Assembly: GCA_030390025.1 (NCBI GenBank)
Contig: CM059431.1
Span: 94,738,001-94,802,000, forward strand
Origin: Squalus acanthias
Lineage: Eukaryota
Length of the DNA stretch: 64,000 nt
Reading direction: 5' to 3'
The position numbers were made by a program, and so were the translations under genes. Under the pieces are notes generated by a model, which was not told the DNA's origin, made no database searches, and saw nothing but the letters and a program-made list of their open reading frames with translations. This document shows, piece by piece, positions 33,258 to 50,690 of this stretch (position 1 is its first letter; the number at the start of each line of letters is the position of its first letter).

Positions 33258-34036
33258 TGCAAGATGTGCGAAAATCGCCTCTCGCCCCGTCAAACAGTTT
33301 CCAAAGTTCAGACCCATCGAACAGACAACACAAAACCCAATGAATCTGTGAAACTTCTTTTACTTAAAAATTAGCAAGAGGTTACAAGCAAGCATCCGAT
33401 AGTTATGTAGTATATAACTCCCAATTACTCTACCTCAGCATACACCGAGCTATCCCTTTGCTTTAAGCTCAAGCAAAACTCCACATACGTACTAACACCA
33501 GCGAGTGGTCAATTCGGCAGTGACTAGACGTATGATTTCTGGCAACTGACCAAGTTGCCCGGATGCAGCAGTGAGTGGTTTTGAAACGGCACCTTTTATA
33601 CCCCTAAATTTGGCAACCCTCCCACTGCGTACGTGTCCCTAACTATACGACAGAATGGTCATCAGTTGTTTTTCAGACCCTCATCACTAATTCGTTGAGC
33701 ATCTGTGGGTCCCAAGGCTAGGTACATTCCATAGTCTGAAGAGGTTTCTGACTTTTTTTGCAACGGCTTCACAGTTCAGTAACTAATAGCTTCTTCACAA
33801 AACTTTTTGAAGGTCTGTATCCCTTCTCTGTTGAAAGTCAGTTGGCAGCCTTTCACTTTTTTTTAGCAGAAAGTCTCTGTTCATGTTCAAGGCCTCTGTA
33901 TCTGTGAAGTTTTTTTTCGCACATGTTCCCACAGGAACCCCTCGAAGCATGCTAGTACTGTAGATCAAAATGTGGTCGTTTTTTTCAGTTTTGGTCAAGT
34001 TGCAGCAATATTTACAGCAAATGGCTTATTCTTACA
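33258..34036 (-). repeat. 3' LTR (779 bp)
   Basis: Termini TGTAAGA...TCTTGCA; preceded by purine-rich GAGGGTGGACT (34037-47); TATAAAA at 33594-600 and AGTAAA at about 33359-64 on the - strand. No second LTR to confirm the boundaries. Confidence 0.7.
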
Positions 34037-34082
34037 AGTCCACCCTCAGTGGCTGTGCACTCGAATCAAGGGTCACAGGCAC

Positions 34083-35790
34083 TTACAACTTGAAGGCGTT
34101 GTCTTCTTCCTTCGGCATCTTCTGCAACAGATTAACCCACTCTTGTTCCTTGCGTCTCCTGTTGACTCGACAAGTTATCATTAGTAAATATAACACAATC
34201 ACCAACTGAACAATGACCAAAACGTGGGAGATAATTCTTATCCAGGGATAAACCTCGATACTCATACCGATATCCCACCAGGACGAATCGTCCCCAACCT
34301 TGGAGATAATTTTACGCAGTTCACGATTTTTCTGGGCCAAGGTATAAAAGTGCTTTTGGGACTGACTAACGAGTTTCATGAACTCTACCAAGTGTTCTGG
34401 TAGAGGTGAAATGTCATAACCGAATCAAGTCACACACTGGTGTAATTGCTCTTTTAACTCATCTTCTTCAACGATATCTACTTGCCTATGCGAATAAATG
34501 CTTAATAAAACCCGCACCCCATGTCTTACAGGTTGAACTGGGGTAAAACAAAAAGTTCCTGCCGCAATGGGACAAGTCAGGTTGTTACCATACTGGTATT
34601 CCCGGTGTATGGAGGTGACACAAGACTCCCCTTTCCCTCGGTACGCAGATTGTACGGGAAAAAGCTTTCCTACAACTACTTTCATGGTGCAGTTCCGTTC
34701 TACCCCATCCCAATCAAATCCGCACATGTTCTACCACGTCATAAGGGCAGATGAATGTATCCCGAGTTTGAGCGCACCCGGTAAGATCTGGGACCACCCA
34801 AGTGGTCCCATCCACCCGGGTCACATACTGCGGGGGTTCATCATACCTTACTAAGTGGTCTGCCTGATGTACTCCTATATTCTCCACGCGGAATAGAGGA
34901 TTTGGGGTTGCCTTTTCATGCAGGATGGGATAATAGAATGCCATCCCTAATAAGGTGATGTCATTCTGTTCCTGCAAATGACATTTGTGTTTTACTGGGT
35001 ACACCTGTACTAGTTATGGTAAATTGATAAGTGGACATTGCCCTCAGATGTCGATCAGTCACCCACAAGAGAAGCTTCCCCTCAGCAATGCGCTGCAGGT
35101 TTTCACAGGCTTGTTCCACTAACCAGGATCCATACATTACACAAACATCATTTTGCATGGCCTCACTAGAGGCATTCAGATTCTCCTTTCTAATTTGGTT
35201 TATCTTTTTAGCATGGGATTCTAAATAGTTAAACACGTCCTGCACTTGAATGGTCATAATTTGGTCCTCCTTCAATTCCTCTTGTTCTAGACCATTCATT
35301 TTATTCAGAATTTCCTTTAGACGATTTCTAACTGCCTTTACGGATTGATCGAAATCAGCCAAATCAAGGCTATTCACGAGGGAGGTTCCGGTATTAAAAA
35401 CAGCAGCTGCATCATTTATCAGACCCCGTCGCGTTCTGATATGGTCCCCTTTAACCCCGTAACTGATGTTGTTTCCTTCAGTGATCTCAGTATTTCCCCC
35501 AAAGTTATTGTTAAATCCATTACTATCTCATGAGCCCTTGCGCTATAATGGCTCTAATTCTGATTTCGCCAAAGTTGTGCTGGCTCTTTCCCAAAATCCT
35601 TTTATTAATTCCCGCACCATTCTCCCATATAACCGTGCTGTTTCTGGTTTGCGCCAGTTCAGTATTCCCACCTCGGTCAGATTTAATATCACAGGTACCA
35701 CCTCCTGATGCACATCATGGTACTATATCATCTACGTTGGGATTACTACTAACCCATTTGTCGGCGTCGGAGAGTATTTGAGACAGACAA
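34083..35790 (-). pseudogene. env: env C-terminal part: class I fusion-protein-like (furin site, fusion peptide, heptad repeats, Cys-rich region, TM)
   Basis: RTRR (35426-37) then GLINDAAAVFNTGTSLVNSLD, long amphipathic helix, Cys-rich segment, SSWWD, TM IISHVLVIVQLVIVLYLLMITC, basic tail; several stops and frameshifts. Confidence 0.8.
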
Positions 35791-47842: not shown

Positions 47843-48049
47843 AACGGAGTGTTACTCCCAGTCCCGTCTCCCTTCTTCCCACCATTGGCCTTTTAGGCTC
47901 TGCGCTGACTATTCACTGGACCGCCAAGGCCGTTGCCTCAGATCGGAACCATACTATACCTGGGGAGGCACCTCGTCACGCAGAGGTGCCTCGGGGGAGC
48001 GCCGCATTAGGCACCCCTTCTCCATCGTCCCATTGGAGCGGCTGAGTCA

Positions 48050-50690
48050 GTTTCACCAGGGCTTGCTGACTTCTTGACATGCTTGTGGGCTGAAAAAGCT
48101 TCATCTGGTTAATGTGAAACCATTTGATTTTCTTGGGTAACTAAACCGCGTATATCATAGGACTGACTTTATCAACAATGTTATACGGTCCCTTGTAGAG
48201 GGGTTCGAAAACTCCCACCCTCGCATAGTTTCATACCATTACTTGGCTTCCCACCTCCCATTCCTGGGGTTTACTTGGAGCCAGGTGTAGTCGATTGCTT
48301 TGGTGTGTCTTCCCAATGTTACGGGCGGCTCAAGTTCAGTTCCTTTGAAGTCCCCCCACAGGTCGCTCAGGAATTTGTCCTGAGTGACTTCTTTAATTTG
48401 ATTATTAGTCAGAGTGGGAATGAACAGGTGTGTGGGGGTTCGCATGGGTCTCCCTGTTATCAGTTCATGAGGGGAATGACCCGTTCCTTTGGATCTGTTA
48501 CTGTGTACCCCCATAAGGATTAGGGGAAGTACCTCATCCCACTTAGTGTGTTGTTCATTTAATTCCTTTCGCAGGGCCAACTTCAATGTACAGTTCATTC
48601 TTTCCACAATCCCTGATGACTGCTGGTTGTGGGTCACATGCCATTTCCCTTCAATTCCAAACAATTTCAGGGTGGCTTGCATTACTTGACCTGTAAAATG
48701 ACTTCCTTGATCTGATTCCACCACTCGGGGAAGCCCCCATCTAGAAACTACCTCCCTGACTAGGGTCTTGGCCGTCCATAATGCTGTATCTGACTTGCAC
48801 GGGAAAGCTTTGACCCACTTGGTAAAATTGTCCCACTAGGATGAGACAATATTTATCGCCCTTCTTAGTGGTGGGCAGGGGTCCGATAAAATCTATCTGG
48901 ACACACTGCCACGGTCCCTCTGGTTGACGGATATGTCTGAGGGGAGCCTTTCTTTTATGTGGGTCAGGATTGTTAGCAGCACACACTAAACAGGTTTTAT
49001 AGTAATTTTCTACGTCTTCCCTCAGATGAGGCCGCCACCCTACCTCTTCGACCAGTTTCCAGGTTGTTTCGGGTCCGGGATGTCCAGCCCCCGTGAGTCA
49101 GCCGCATGAATTCCTCCCTGTATCCTTCGGGCACAATCCACTTATCACGTTTGAACAACATACCTTCCCTGATGTTTACATCTTTGGCCCATAAGGCCCT
49201 TCTACAATCTGTCCTGCTTCTTTTTCCTTGAGGACTGTTTTTAGCACTACATCTGTCGGCTCTATTGTTTTGATAGCCAGGGGAAGCGGAATAGTAACAG
49301 CCGGAGTGACGGCTGCTACCACTCCCGATTGATACGGGTCCCGCGGGACCCATCTCTCCGCTCCCACTTTAGCAAGCTCGTCCACTTTCCTATTTCCCTC
49401 CCATCTGGGTTCTGCTTTAGAGTGGGCTTTGACTTTATGGATATAGTATTCATCGCCACCCCTTTTTATGACTTCCAGTATGGTTGCCAGCATTGACGCG
49501 GTAACCAGTGGCTTGCCATCTGCTGACTTAAAACCTCTTCTAGCTGTATTCCGTGCAAGAATTACATGTAAACATAGTCAGAGCAGATCATATAGGGTGG
49601 GGGAAATTCAGTGGGATGTGTTGCCACATAAGTTACAGCTGCTAACTCTGCCTGCTGAGCACTAAGAGTGGTGGGTAACTTAATCGCCACTTCCATTGCT
49701 TTCTGTGGGTCGTAAATTCCACACCCTGTTTTACATTCCCCCTTTTCTACAAAACTAGACCCATCCACATATGTCTCTCCCCTCAGGGTGGATACCAGAT
49801 TTAAATCCGCCTTCTGTTTCCCACACCCCCTCGACTGTACAGGTGTGTTTCCCCTTATATATAAGGTTGGGTACTAATTTCGGATCGCTTATCGGTTTCA
49901 CTTTCAGGTTCATCCCTTCTAACTGTAGGGTCCACGTAGCCACCCGAGTGCTTGACATCATTCCCTCCTTAATTCTGCCTTCTAACAGGAGGCGGGTTGG
50001 CGTGTGGTGGGTAAGGAGAGTGATGGGCTGGGTTCCCGTGAATACGGCAAAATGCTTCACTGCAAGCAAGTGCCACTCACAGGTAAAGTATCCCTTCTCC
50101 ACCTCAGATAGTCCTTTGGAGGCATAAGCAACTGGTCTCAGACACCCATTCACTTCCTGTATTAAAACAGCACTCGGACTGGTGTCTGTTGCCGTAACTT
50201 CCAAAAAGAAGTCCTTCTTCGGGTCTGTGGCCCCCCAATGCTGGGGCTGTTTGTAGGTCCTTTTTCAACTTTACAAAAGCTTCCTCACAGTGCTCATCCC
50301 AATCCCATTCCACTCCCTTTCTGAGTAATCTCAGCAAAGGAGCAACCGTCGCTGCCTAATTCTCAATAAATTCTCTACAGTACCCTGTCAGACCCAGGAA
50401 TGATCTGAGAGCAGCTATTGAACCCGGGCGGTGCAATTCCTGGACAGTTTTGCACTTTGCTTCGTCTATCGCGCGCTCCCCTGGTCGAAGAGTCAGTCCA
50501 AGAAACTGAACATCTCTTTGCCCTATTTGTGCCTTCTTGGGGTTTACCTTAAAACCTACGGCTGCAAGCAATTCTAACAATTCCTGCAGTAGTTCCTCAT
50601 GTTCCTCTTTGCTATCGGAGAACAGCAGTAAATCATCCACATCCTGTACAAGCTGGCCTGGTTGACTGAATTCTGATAGGCTGTTAGCCG
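48050..50690 (-). pseudogene. pol: pol: RT C-terminal half, tether (degenerate RNase H), retroviral RNase H, integrase
   Basis: QDVDDLLL (mutated YVDD), LRSFLGLTGYCR; PVAYASK.L; YVDGSS...SAQQAELAAV...KVKAH...GN..VDELAK; HHCC; QIDFIG, ESDQGSHF-x35-E; GPY motif. Confidence 0.93.

What the first reader, a model, noticed from the sequence alone, without database searches (positions are those of the whole stretch)
33258..50690. Hidden endogenous retrovirus with dual RNase H and a fusion(F)-protein-like env: candidate elasmobranch lokiretrovirus
Seen: removing the nested CR1/CR1/Harbinger block (about 35791-47105) leaves a coherent - strand provirus of RT (C-terminal half), a Gypsy-like RNase H remnant lacking the catalytic Asp (EVTATDTS...PVAYASK.L...E..Y..CE..LLAV), a second retrovirus-type RNase H (YVDGSS/SAQQAEL/KVKAH), an HHCC-DD35E integrase with GPY, env, PPT and a TG..CA LTR. 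Env has RTRR followed at once by a fusion peptide and about 450 residues (long heptad, Cys-rich middle, second heptad, WW, TM), with no CKS-17 or CX6CC motif. Established: tether plus RNase H is a retroviral hallmark, and lokiretroviruses are a sister lineage of other retroviruses whose Env resembles Mononegavirales fusion proteins. Inference: this is a loki-like (alternatively spuma-like) ERV in a cartilaginous fish, a host group I do not recall being well represented for that lineage.
Basis: partly seen in the sequence, partly recalled or inferred. Interest (0 to 1): 0.85.

Follow-up and report, generated by a model that had tools for sequence, protein, structure and literature searches.

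The report
Foamy-like shark endogenous retrovirus, broken copy
This is a dead, truncated and transposon-riddled copy of a multi-copy endogenous retrovirus of a shark-type genome whose envelope protein folds like the fusion protein of measles-type viruses, as foamy virus envelopes are already known to do, so it is a member of a known deep retroviral lineage, not a lokiretrovirus.

Summary
After removal of a nested LINE/LINE/Harbinger block (35791-47105), the minus strand reads RT (C-terminal half), tether, RNase H, integrase (HHCC, DDE, GPY), env and a 3' LTR. Pol and env are one element: 5 of 6 fetched pol-bearing genomic copies carry the same env at the same spacing.

The env fold is F-like. 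The AlphaFold model (pLDDT 71.6) best matches paramyxo- and pneumovirus F (Foldseek E 4.9e-11; VIA Z 10.1) and also foamy virus Env 8rm0 (Z 8.1).

The lokiretrovirus reading is not supported.
- Env does not match Pfam Fusion_gly (PF00523), the reported loki hallmark. Its profile does match foamy virus Env by sequence (PDB E 1.6e-4; hhalign E 2.2e-6), and the env of an isolate retrovirus in IMG/VR (E 3e-8).
- RT is nearest foamy virus RT in the PDB and carries the canonical LPQGFxNSP motif, where two printed Xenopus loki RTs have LPFGY.
- The loki authors found none in the Chondrichthyes orders I saw tabulated.

It fits the SnRV-like/foamy-like basal ERVs already reported from cartilaginous fishes. 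Its deep placement is unresolved (AU p 0.053 against a clade with foamy viruses). The scan noted foamy-type Env elsewhere in this genome before.

The parts
33258..34036 (-). 3' LTR, about 780 bp. It holds a TATA-like GGTATAAAAGG near 33600. The 3' end is uncertain by about 15 bases.
   Evidence: Read directly. The start was placed by aligning 5' and 3' LTR starts of other copies. The end region was aligned to 5' LTR ends followed by the primer binding site in other copies. LTR pieces match other copies.
34038..34047 (-). Polypurine-like tract GAGGGTGGAC, just upstream of the LTR.
   Evidence: It is conserved as GAGGGTGGAT in two other copies (L012, L020).
34083..35790 (-). env, the C-terminal two thirds: F2-like segment, furin-type site RTRR, fusion peptide, long helix, Cys-rich beta domains, second helix and membrane anchor. 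It is broken by 2 frameshifts and 1 in-frame stop.
   Evidence: ORF pieces. 84-88% DNA identity to 40 or more other copies. Fold. Homology to foamy virus Env.
35791..47105 (.). Nested insertion block inside env. A LINE on the + strand is split into 35791-38113 and 45063-47105. A LINE on the - strand lies at about 38114-40960. A Harbinger lies at 40961-45062.
   Evidence: Pfam hits Exo_endo_phos, RVT_1, Lipase_GDSL_2, DDE_Tnp_4 and Myb_DNA-bind_5. Homology breaks against uninterrupted copies. Self-comparison.
47106..47700 (-). env N-terminal (surface subunit) part. No family match.
   Evidence: The ORF at 47192-47644 is found between integrase and the env C-terminal part, at the same spacing, in other copies. 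No Pfam hit.
47946..49097 (-). Integrase: zinc-binding HHCC, DDE core and a GPY motif at about 48191. It is frameshifted.
   Evidence: Integrase_H2C2 E 1.1e-10 and rve E 2.6e-7. Motifs read.
49176..49873 (-). Retrovirus-type RNase H (YVDGSS, AELAAV, CSD, KVKAH), split by a frameshift.
   Evidence: Pfam RNase_H on both pieces. The intact relative ORF P0002 scores E 2.6e-19.
49755..50355 (-). Tether, a degenerate Ty3/Gypsy-type RNase H.
   Evidence: RT_RNaseH E 8.3e-15 and RT_RNaseH_2 E 1.4e-10.
50356..50697 (-). Reverse transcriptase, C-terminal half only. The element ends here on its 5' side.
   Evidence: RVT_1 E 8.2e-12, profile positions 149-205. All other copies lose homology with the window at 50689-50694. 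No gag, protease or RT N-terminus in the window.
57409..64000 (-). Second copy of env 34803-35790 plus the nested LINEs. It is a segmental duplication, lacks the Harbinger, and runs off the window.
   Evidence: Self-blast: 34803-40960 = 57409-63606 at 97.1%, and 45063-45462 = 63602-64000 at 97.3%. Also seen.

Best explanation
The region is a dead copy of a multi-copy endogenous retrovirus family of a cartilaginous-fish-type genome.

Intact plan of the family (shown): LTR, an 18-base primer binding site, gag, protease, RT, tether, RNase H, integrase, env, polypurine tract, LTR. Only about 47 bases separate the env stop from the 3' LTR, so there is no room for accessory genes there.

State of the window copy (shown):
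- Everything 5' of the middle of RT is missing.
- It carries at least 6 frameshifts and 1 stop in pol, and 2 frameshifts and 1 stop in env.
- Nested LINE insertions split the env surface subunit.
- The stretch was then partly duplicated as a segment of about 22.6 kb. A Harbinger inserted later, into one copy only.

How the Env would have worked (inferred from fold and motifs):
- It is a class I fusion protein of the F type.
- A precursor is cut by a furin-like protease at R-x-R-R, which frees a hydrophobic fusion peptide.
- A long helix, three Cys-bridged beta-rich domains, a second helix and a membrane anchor then refold to merge membranes.
- Receptor binding would fall to an extra N-terminal part.

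Lineage (partly shown): it belongs to the basal SnRV-like/foamy-like (class III-related) assemblage of canonical retroviruses already described from chimaera, catshark, frog and coelacanth genomes. It is not a lokiretrovirus.
For: Anatomy.

One element, not two:
- In 5 of 6 fetched pol-bearing loci, pol is followed by the same post-integrase ORF and env.
- Four loci appear in both the env DNA list and the pol DNA list, with a gap of 2035-2062 bases. The window gap is about 1995 bases after removing the nest.
- Gag, protease and the RT N-terminus are present in other copies.

Copy number: 459 first-look candidates for env and 1293 for pol, of which 40 each were scored, at 75-91% identity.

Env:
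- 44 relatives at E <= 0.001 among 1.84 billion representatives.
- Of the 10 looked up, the named ones come from sharks, a skate and two frogs.
- The three best PDB hits of the profile are all foamy virus Env: 8ozh E 1.6e-4, 8rm1 E 1.3e-3, 8rm0 E 6.1e-3. No F protein appears among the 18 hits at E <= 10.
- hhalign against one foamy Env gives 80% probability, E 1.4e-5. Against 10 foamy Envs it gives 89%, E 2.2e-6. Against the env of the IMG/VR isolate retrovirus L047 it gives 95%, E 3e-8, over 279 columns including the cleavage site.
- Fold.
- Language-model neighbours are Baculo_F and Fusion_gly clusters, scores 0.90-0.92.

RT and Pol:
- Best PDB hits are foamy virus PR-RT (150 and 130 bits), then MLV (about 124), Ty3 (99) and HIV-2 (71).
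- In the RT tree the family lies inside the retrovirus clade (100/100) and outside the gamma/delta/epsilon-like clade (97/98).
- The RT motif CLPQGFHNSPSIF matches canonical retroviruses in the Wang and Han alignment, where Loki-Xla and Loki-Xtr have LPFGYINAGHEF.

Earlier reports of such ERVs in cartilaginous fishes:
- PMC4422223, first part of the text read.
- PMC5512871, passages.
- PMC10699275, passages.
Against: - No lokiretrovirus sequence could be obtained, so the family was never placed in a tree with lokis.
- The deep branching is unstable. The RT tree is a polytomy.
- In the whole-Pol tree the proxy P0003 (58-73% identical to the family) groups with Latimeria, ostrich and an unnamed protein (97/97) and with L047 (87/86). 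That group is sister to foamy plus all other sampled retroviruses (92/87), not to foamy viruses.
- Holding it together with foamy viruses costs 8.2 log-likelihood units, AU p 0.053.
- With more rows, in an unfinished search (quick tree, SH-aLRT only), these ERVs form a basal grade and foamy viruses join the long delta branch.
- Pfam Foamy_virus_ENV does not hit the Env.
- The tether plus RNase H region scores higher against MLV/XMRV (53 bits) than against foamy virus (24 bits).
- The primer binding site is, from my recall, the tRNA-Lys3 type, not the Lys1,2 type of most foamy viruses.
- No accessory genes follow env.
Confidence: 0.8

Rival explanations
1. It is a lokiretrovirus, or a sister of lokis, in a cartilaginous fish: a lineage outside all canonical retroviruses with an F-like Env.
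For: - F-like Env fold and dual RNase H.
- In the whole-Pol tree the lineage branches below foamy plus orthoretroviruses (92/87), the position lokis are reported to hold.
- Union with foamy viruses is nearly rejected (AU p 0.053).
- Relatives are auto-named NYNRIN-like, and loki integrase is reported to be close to CGIN1 (PMC7947760, section 9). That CGIN1 is NYNRIN is my recall.
- By eye, the printed loki Env tail shows a CG..C motif like ours.
Against: - No PF00523 match in P0001 at E <= 1, none in 16 relatives at E <= 0.01, and none over cut-off genome-wide, the last with a stricter filter.
- The RT motif is the canonical LPQGFxNSP.
- None of 7 short motifs taken from the printed Loki-Xla integrase occurs in any of the 212 stored proteins, including the Xenopus relatives at 44-46% identity.
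- The clade includes bird proteins, while the loki authors list 0 for Aves (146 genomes) and 0 for the 4 genomes of the two Chondrichthyes orders I saw.
- The NYNRIN-like label is also given to gamma-type proteins, so it is not specific.
Confidence: 0.06
2. Pol and env belong to two different adjacent elements, so the provirus is a chance or recombinant juxtaposition.
For: - Many env-bearing copies lack RT, tether, RNase H and the integrase zinc finger. In the 5 of 6 first-fetched loci that matched integrase at all (L016, L011, L018, L021, L019), homology to the window began inside the integrase core, at query positions 2146, 2156, 2156, 2156 and 2257.
- One pol-bearing locus (C3682) showed no env in the fetched stretch.
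Against: - 5 of 6 pol-bearing loci carry pol, the post-integrase ORF and env in the same order and spacing.
- The pol-less copies keep the gag N-terminus and both LTRs, so they are internally deleted derivatives of a related subfamily.
Confidence: 0.02
3. It is an ordinary class I (gamma- or epsilon-like) ERV or a Ty3/Gypsy element with an env.
For: - MLV RT is a close second in the PDB search (124 against 150 bits).
- The tether plus RNase H region is most like MLV/XMRV.
- The RT motif VDDLLL is MLV-like.
Against: - The family is excluded from the gamma/delta/epsilon-like clade (97/98; 97/94).
- Env has no TLV_coat match and no CX6CC.
- No MLVIN_C domain in the family's integrase pieces or in P0003.
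- The retrovirus clade is separated from Ty3/Gypsy rows at 100/100.
Confidence: 0.03

Closest known systems
SnRV-like / foamy-like ERVs of cartilaginous fishes and frogs: CmiERV lineage I (Han 2015, PMC4422223); CmiFLERV and XtrFLERV (Aiewsakun and Katzourakis 2017, PMC5512871); ERV-Spuma.0-Sca of the small-spotted catshark (PMC10699275); and the cartilaginous fish endogenous foamy virus of Wang, Chen and Cui 2023, of which I saw only the title in reference lists
   Same: - The host group, a deep position near foamy viruses and SnRV, and old insertions.
- Relatives in both sharks and frogs echo the reported clustering of shark and frog FLERVs.
- Env is related to the env of L047, an isolate retrovirus genome in IMG/VR that I suspect, from recall only, to be the snakehead retrovirus.
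   Different: - I could not compare sequences with those published elements, so identity of lineage is inferred.
- Two of those papers report finding no gene other than pol, or no Env domain, in the shark elements. Here env is characterised.
- The 2023 J Virol paper was not readable and may already cover this.
Foamy viruses (Spumaretrovirinae) and their Env gp130 (PDB 8RM0/8RM1, 8OZH; PMC11468914)
   Same: - Sequence-level homology of the Cys-rich part of the fusion subunit.
- The same F-like fold (8rm0 Z 8.1, 283 residues aligned).
- RT is the nearest in the PDB. The integrase has an H2C2 domain and matches PFV integrase. The gag pieces have no zinc knuckle.
   Different: - No Pfam Foamy_virus_ENV match.
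- No large receptor-binding insert between the F2-like and F1-like parts: 283 aligned residues span 713 in 8rm0 but 446 in the model.
- No accessory genes after env.
- A different primer binding site (from my recall).
- Not a supported sister group in my Pol trees.
Lokiretroviruses (Wang and Han 2020, PMC7947760)
   Same: - Gag-pol-env provirus with a tether plus RNase H.
- Env with an R-x-K/R-R site, fusion peptide, coiled coil and membrane anchor.
- F-like character of the Env.
   Different: - Env does not match PF00523.
- The RT motif is of the canonical type.
- The host class is reported as loki-free.
- No smc gene seen.
Paramyxovirus and pneumovirus fusion protein F
   Same: Overall fold across F2-like and F1-like parts, the cleavage site followed at once by a fusion peptide, and two helical regions.
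   Different: - 8-15% identity and no sequence-family match.
- The gene lies in a retroviral genome.
- An extra N-terminal region precedes the F2-like segment.

Membership tests
Lokiretrovirus | RT falls in the monophyletic loki clade, outside all canonical retroviruses. | not testable with these tools
   No loki sequence could be entered. Trees without lokis place the family inside the retrovirus clade, but at or near its base.
Lokiretrovirus | RT sequence signature as printed for Loki-Xla and Loki-Xtr (LPFGYINAGHEF, GYWTIKI). | tested here: not met
   The family has CLPQGFHNSPSIF and NGFWSIPL, as canonical retroviruses do in the same published alignment. I saw only two loki sequences at this motif.
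Lokiretrovirus | Env detectably similar to Pfam PF00523 Fusion_gly (reported E 2.2e-7). | tested here: not met
   No hit for P0001 at E <= 1, for the window pieces at E <= 0.1, or for 16 relatives at E <= 0.01. The genome-wide best is 17.2 bits at unrelated places, with a stricter filter.
Lokiretrovirus | Dual RNase H (tether plus RNase H). | tested here: met
   The feature is shared with all retroviruses, so it does not discriminate.
Foamy-like ERV / Spumaretrovirinae | Env homologous to foamy virus Env. | tested here: met
   The profile hits 8ozh, 8rm1 and 8rm0 as the top three of 18. hhalign E 1.4e-5 and 2.2e-6. The Pfam PF03408 model itself does not hit, so the relation is distant.
Foamy-like ERV / Spumaretrovirinae | Pol or RT groups with foamy viruses. 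| tested here: inconclusive
   Best PDB RT hit is foamy. The RT tree is a polytomy. The Pol tree does not join them. AU p 0.053.
Foamy-like ERV / Spumaretrovirinae | Accessory genes (tas/bet-like) between env and the 3' LTR. | tested here: not met
   Env stop at 34083 and LTR start at about 34036, so about 47 bases lie between them.
Foamy-like ERV / Spumaretrovirinae | Primer binding site for tRNA-Lys1,2. | tested here: not met
   The 5' LTR of four copies is followed by TGGCGCCCGAACAGGGAC or a one-base variant; a fifth, L011, has three changes. From recall this is the tRNA-Lys3 type. It was not checked against host tRNA genes.
SnRV-like clade | Pol groups with the snakehead retrovirus. | tested here: inconclusive
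   Groups with L047 at 87/86 but forms a grade in the larger quick tree. That L047 is SnRV is my guess from genome size and gag-stop-pol layout.
SnRV-like clade | Env homologous to that of the reference virus. | tested here: met
   hhalign 95%, E 3e-8, 279 columns against the L047 env ORF.
Paramyxo/pneumovirus F (fold class) | F fold across F2 and F1. | tested here: met
   Foldseek finds 263 PDB chains at E <= 0.001, and every row shown is an F protein. In VIA, 49 of the 50 entries shown are F proteins and one is foamy Env, with Z 7.8-10.1. Model pLDDT is 71.6, pTM 0.50.

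The most novel reading that the evidence does not exclude
This shark-frog-coelacanth-bird lineage, together with the isolate virus L047, may be a separate deep branch that is sister to foamy viruses plus all orthoretroviruses, as my Pol tree suggests.

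It carries a compact F-type Env that is sequence-linked to foamy virus gp48. The printed loki Env tail shows, by eye only, a similar CG..C motif.

If so, an F-like Env would be the ancestral envelope of retroviruses as a whole, kept in lokis, this lineage and foamy viruses, and replaced by the gamma-type Env later.
Probability: 0.2. Interest if true: 0.7.

Novelty: new member of a known kind. Interest (0 to 1): 0.3.

Why it matters
It removes a tempting but unsupported claim, that lokiretroviruses occur in a new vertebrate class.

It also shows, with sequence and fold evidence, that the env of the shark and frog foamy-like/SnRV-like ERVs is a compact F-type fusion protein related to foamy virus gp48. 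Two earlier surveys reported finding no gene other than pol, or no Env domain, in such shark elements.

That adds one more retroviral lineage to the set with F-like envelopes. This bears on whether that envelope type is ancestral in retroviruses.

The locus itself is a dead copy of no functional consequence.

Tried and rejected
- Word-indexed search of 5.8 billion proteins with Env P0001 found nothing at E <= 0.001.
- A single-sequence fold was useless (pLDDT 35.5), so I refolded with a 36-row alignment.
- A single-sequence PDB search with Env gave only chance hits, E >= 1.
- Pfam on the gag pieces gave nothing.
- The genome-wide PF00523 search ran with a stricter filter, so weak matches may be missing.
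- I looked for loki proteins among the stored hits using 7 short motifs read from the published integrase alignment. There were 0 hits in 212 proteins, so no loki reference could be labelled.
- The larger Pol tree did not finish its careful search. Only a quick tree was obtained, and it joins foamy and delta long branches, a likely artefact.
I used the natural database protein P0003 as a stand-in.
- I could not name L047 from any paper.
- The 2023 J Virol paper on cartilaginous fish endogenous foamy virus is not held.
- The earlier-findings look-up near this place returned nothing.
- No more genome DNA could be cut out, so the primer binding site was not checked against host tRNA genes, and the continuation of the second duplicate beyond the window was not fetched.

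Full report
**1. What is in the window**

Stop-to-stop ORFs on the minus strand between 50775 and 48239 give Pfam matches in retroviral order:
- RVT_1, C-terminal part only, 50356-50775, E 8.2e-12.
- RT_RNaseH (the tether), 49755-50264, E 8.3e-15.
- RNase_H in two pieces, 49562-49873 and 49176-49577.
- Integrase_H2C2, 48741-49097.
- rve, 48239-48835.

Between 35527 and 34083 four further pieces read as an envelope protein. RTRR is followed at once by GLINDAAAVF. The env stop is at 34085-34083. A purine-rich GAGGGTGGAC lies at 34047-34038. An LTR of about 780 bp runs to about 33258, with a TATA-like box near 33600.

The block 35791-47105 is foreign:
- A LINE on the plus strand, split in two.
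- A LINE on the minus strand inside it.
- A Harbinger (DDE_Tnp_4 plus a Myb/SANT protein) at 40961-45062.

The copy is badly damaged. From the overlaps of the ORF pieces I count at least six frameshifts and one in-frame stop in pol, and two frameshifts and one stop in the C-terminal part of env.

It stops on its 5' side at about 50694. Every other genomic copy loses homology with the window there. Protein searches with gag, protease and RT N-terminal pieces of other copies find nothing else in the 64 kb.

**2.

A self-comparison shows that 34803-40960 recurs at 57409-63606 (97.1% identity) and 45063-45462 at 63602-64000. Part of env, with its nested LINEs, was therefore copied again about 22.6 kb away. 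The Harbinger is in the first copy only.

That fits a late insertion.

**3. One element or two?**

The own genome (3.7 Gb) holds many copies. There were 459 first-look candidates for the env DNA and 1293 for the pol DNA. Forty of each were scored, at 75-91% identity.

Four loci appear in both lists, with pol 2035-2062 bases upstream of env. The window gap is about 1995 bases once the nest is removed.

I fetched six pol-bearing loci. Five show RT, tether, RNase H, integrase, the post-integrase ORF and env in order. The sixth shows no env in the stretch fetched. Two of the five are duplicates of each other (99.7% over the 8 kb 5' stretches compared).

Other copies supply the missing 5' half:
- An LTR.
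- An 18-base primer binding site.
- A gag of roughly 470 residues with no zinc knuckle.
- A protease-like stretch.
- The RT N-terminus.

Six env-bearing loci fetched first behaved differently. Where integrase matched (5 of 6), homology began inside the integrase core. The four with LTR pairs keep a diverged gag N-terminus. They are internally deleted derivatives.

**4. The envelope protein**

I used the longest natural env ORF found among the fetched copies (P0001, 586 residues).
- It has no Pfam family at E <= 1.
- It has no PDB sequence hit better than E = 1.
- A word-indexed search found no relative.
- An exhaustive HMMER search of 1.84 billion representatives found 44 relatives. Of the ten looked up, the named ones come from five elasmobranchs and two frogs.

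A 36-row alignment (A1) gave these results:
- Its three best PDB matches are all foamy virus Env: 8ozh E 1.6e-4, 8rm1 E 1.3e-3, 8rm0 E 6.1e-3. They fall over the Cys-rich part of the fusion subunit. None of the many F proteins in the PDB appears among the 18 hits at E <= 10.
- Profile comparison with one foamy Env gives 80% probability, E 1.4e-5. With ten foamy Envs it gives 89%, E 2.2e-6.
- Against the env ORF of L047, an isolate retrovirus genome from IMG/VR, it gives 95%, E 3e-8, over 279 columns that include the cleavage site.

With the alignment, AlphaFold reaches pLDDT 71.6, pTM 0.50.
- Foldseek's best matches are RSV, PIV3, Langya and NDV F (best E 4.9e-11).
- VIA-align gives Z 10.1 for Nipah F and Z 8.1 for the foamy Env 8rm0. 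The alignment runs from model residue about 45, before the cleavage site, to about 480.
- Language-model neighbours are Baculo_F and Fusion_gly clusters, scores 0.90-0.92.

It is an F-type class I fusion protein with an F2-like segment, a furin-type site, a fusion peptide, a long helix, beta-rich Cys-bridged domains, a second helix and an anchor. It has no CX6CC and no CKS-17-like motif.

Compared with foamy Env it is compact. The 283 aligned residues span 713 residues of 8rm0 but 446 of the model, so the large foamy receptor-binding insert is absent. An extra region lies N-terminal instead: the ORF at 47192-47644 and its continuation.

Two earlier notes of this scan report an Ig-like head on retroviral envelopes in this genome. 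One names foamy Env as the closest known (e1-7806620, e1-7790166). I did not test the Ig claim.

**5. Loki or not?**

According to the paper that defined them, lokiretroviruses:
- form a clade outside all sampled retroviruses in RT trees;
- have a tether plus RNase H;
- have an Env that matches Pfam PF00523 at E 2.2e-7 (PMC7947760, sections 5, 6, 8 and 9 read).

That paper lists hosts in five vertebrate classes, without Chondrichthyes. In the rows of its supplement that I saw, Orectolobiformes score 3 genomes and 0 lokis, Carcharhiniformes 1 and 0, and Aves 146 and 0. Chiloscyllium punctatum and Struthio camelus are among the genomes listed.

My tests:
- PF00523 is not matched by the window pieces, by P0001, by 16 relatives, or anywhere in the genome over cut-off. 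The last search used a stricter filter.
- The family's RT reads CLPQGFHNSPSIF and NGFWSIPL. In the published RT alignments MuLV, KoRV, FLV, REV, WDSV, foamy viruses, ZFERV-2 and HTLV-2 have LPQGF and HERV-L and the FLERVs have LPQGY, most followed by xNSP. Loki-Xla and Loki-Xtr have LPFGYINAGHEF, closer to the LPFGL of Ty3/Gypsy. I saw only two loki sequences at this motif.
- The best PDB matches of the RT are foamy virus PR-RT (150 and 130 bits), ahead of MLV (about 124), Ty3 (99) and HIV-2 (71).
- None of seven short motifs from the printed Loki-Xla integrase occurs in any of the 212 stored proteins, including the Xenopus tropicalis relatives at 44-46% identity.

I could not put loki sequences into a tree, so the decisive test is still open.

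**6. Trees**

IMG/VR supplied 34 retroviral genomes. I labelled them by Pfam on their gag and env ORFs:
- Fifteen by size and layout as foamy viruses, of which five were confirmed by Foamy_virus_ENV.
- Eleven as gammaretroviruses, of which four were checked.
- Three as probable deltaretroviruses.
- L047 and four others were left unassigned.

The RT tree had 47 rows and 229 columns. I left out L074, L080 and P0009 (broken or short) and thinned the foamy and gamma rows.
- The family and its closest database relative P0003 sit inside the retrovirus clade (100/100).
- They lie outside the gamma/delta/epsilon-like clade (97/98).
- They are in a polytomy with foamy viruses, L047 and ERV proteins of coelacanth, caecilian, turtle and ostrich.

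For whole Pol I used the natural protein P0003 as a stand-in. It is 58% identical to P0002 over 523 residues and 73% in RT.
- It groups with a coelacanth protein, an unnamed protein and an ostrich protein (97/97), and with L047 (87/86).
- This group is sister to foamy viruses plus the rest (92/87).
- Forcing it together with foamy viruses costs 8.2 log-likelihood units, AU p 0.053.

A larger set with frog, stork and cyprinid proteins did not finish. Its quick tree shows a basal grade and an evident long-branch join of foamy and delta viruses.

The family therefore belongs to the poorly resolved base of the canonical retroviruses. That bird proteins sit with it or below it argues against equating this position with lokis, since lokis are reported absent from 146 bird genomes.

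**7. What is already known**

- Han (2015) described CmiERV lineage I of the elephant shark, clustering with the snakehead retrovirus. He defined ERVs by a pol with a downstream env homologue (PMC4422223, first part read).
- Aiewsakun and Katzourakis (2017) called shark and frog elements foamy-like. [quoted passage not shown] - A 2024 survey states that most RT-bearing ERVs of cartilaginous fishes are clade III (PMC11089739, passages).
- A review mentions a divergent SnRV-like clade that may be an ancestral branch (PMC4977317, passages).
- The F-like fold of foamy Env was published in 2024 (PMC11468914, passages).
- A 2023 J Virol paper on a cartilaginous fish endogenous foamy virus is known to me by title only.

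The lineage and the fold link are therefore both in print. The added piece here is the characterised env of the elasmobranch and frog elements and its sequence link to foamy gp48 and to the L047 env.

**8. Verdict**

The best reading is a broken copy of a known kind of deep, foamy-like/SnRV-like endogenous retrovirus. The age is uncertain. LTR pairs of other copies are 86.8-96.1% identical, which means tens of millions of years or more, depending on the rate assumed.

Interest is modest. The bolder possibility rests on unstable deep branches and an untested comparison with loki Env: a separate basal lineage showing that F-like envelopes are ancestral in retroviruses.

Noticed in passing
window 34803-40960 and 57409-63606; 45063-45462 and 63602-64000: A segmental duplication of about 22.6 kb period (97% identity) copies part of env together with the nested LINEs. 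The 4.1-kb Harbinger (40961-45062) is present only in the first copy, with a few bases of overlap at the empty site. It therefore inserted after the duplication, or was excised from the second copy.
   Followed up: partly
loci L011/L012, L017/L018, L019/L020, L021/L022 (other genomic copies): Many env-bearing copies are internally deleted. They keep both LTRs and a diverged gag N-terminus (54-70% amino-acid identity), then jump into the integrase core at one recurrent point in three of the four copies (L019 starts about 100 bases later), and continue through env. This is a non-autonomous subfamily that keeps env but lacks protease, RT and RNase H.
   Followed up: partly
L036, L039, L043, L019, L011, just after the 5' LTR: The 18-base primer binding site TGGCGCCCGAACAGGGAC is exact in 2 of the 5 copies aligned; two differ by one base and L011 by three. 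From recall this is the tRNA-Lys3 type used by lentiviruses. The gag start codon follows only about 25 bases later, an unusually short leader.
   Followed up: no
proteins P0044, P0071 and cluster members (frogs); P0035, P0041, P0037, P0046, P0052 (sharks, skate): Env relatives are annotated as host proteins in two frogs (16 near-identical copies in Mantella aurantiaca) and in five elasmobranchs. Three are fused by gene models to host domains or names (F-box, cadherin, Niban-like). One, P0052, weakly matches Baculo_F (E 0.0011).
   Followed up: partly
loci L039/L040 (C2561) and L041/L042 (C29): The 8 kb 5' stretches of two full-length proviruses on different contigs (L039, L041) are 99.7% identical, flank included. 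They are segmental duplicates or an assembly duplication, not independent insertions.
   Followed up: no
window 36606-37097 (+): The ORF1 of the nested LINE carries a GDSL-lipase/esterase-like domain (E 8.7e-11), as in CR1/L2-type LINEs of fishes.
   Followed up: no
L047 (IMG/VR record, 10,688 nt): An isolate-type retrovirus genome with gag-stop-pol in one frame and an env ORF of more than 1,129 residues with no Pfam match. That env aligns to the shark Env profile across the cleavage site and fusion subunit (E 3e-8). This exogenous-type virus probably also has an F-like Env.
   Followed up: partly
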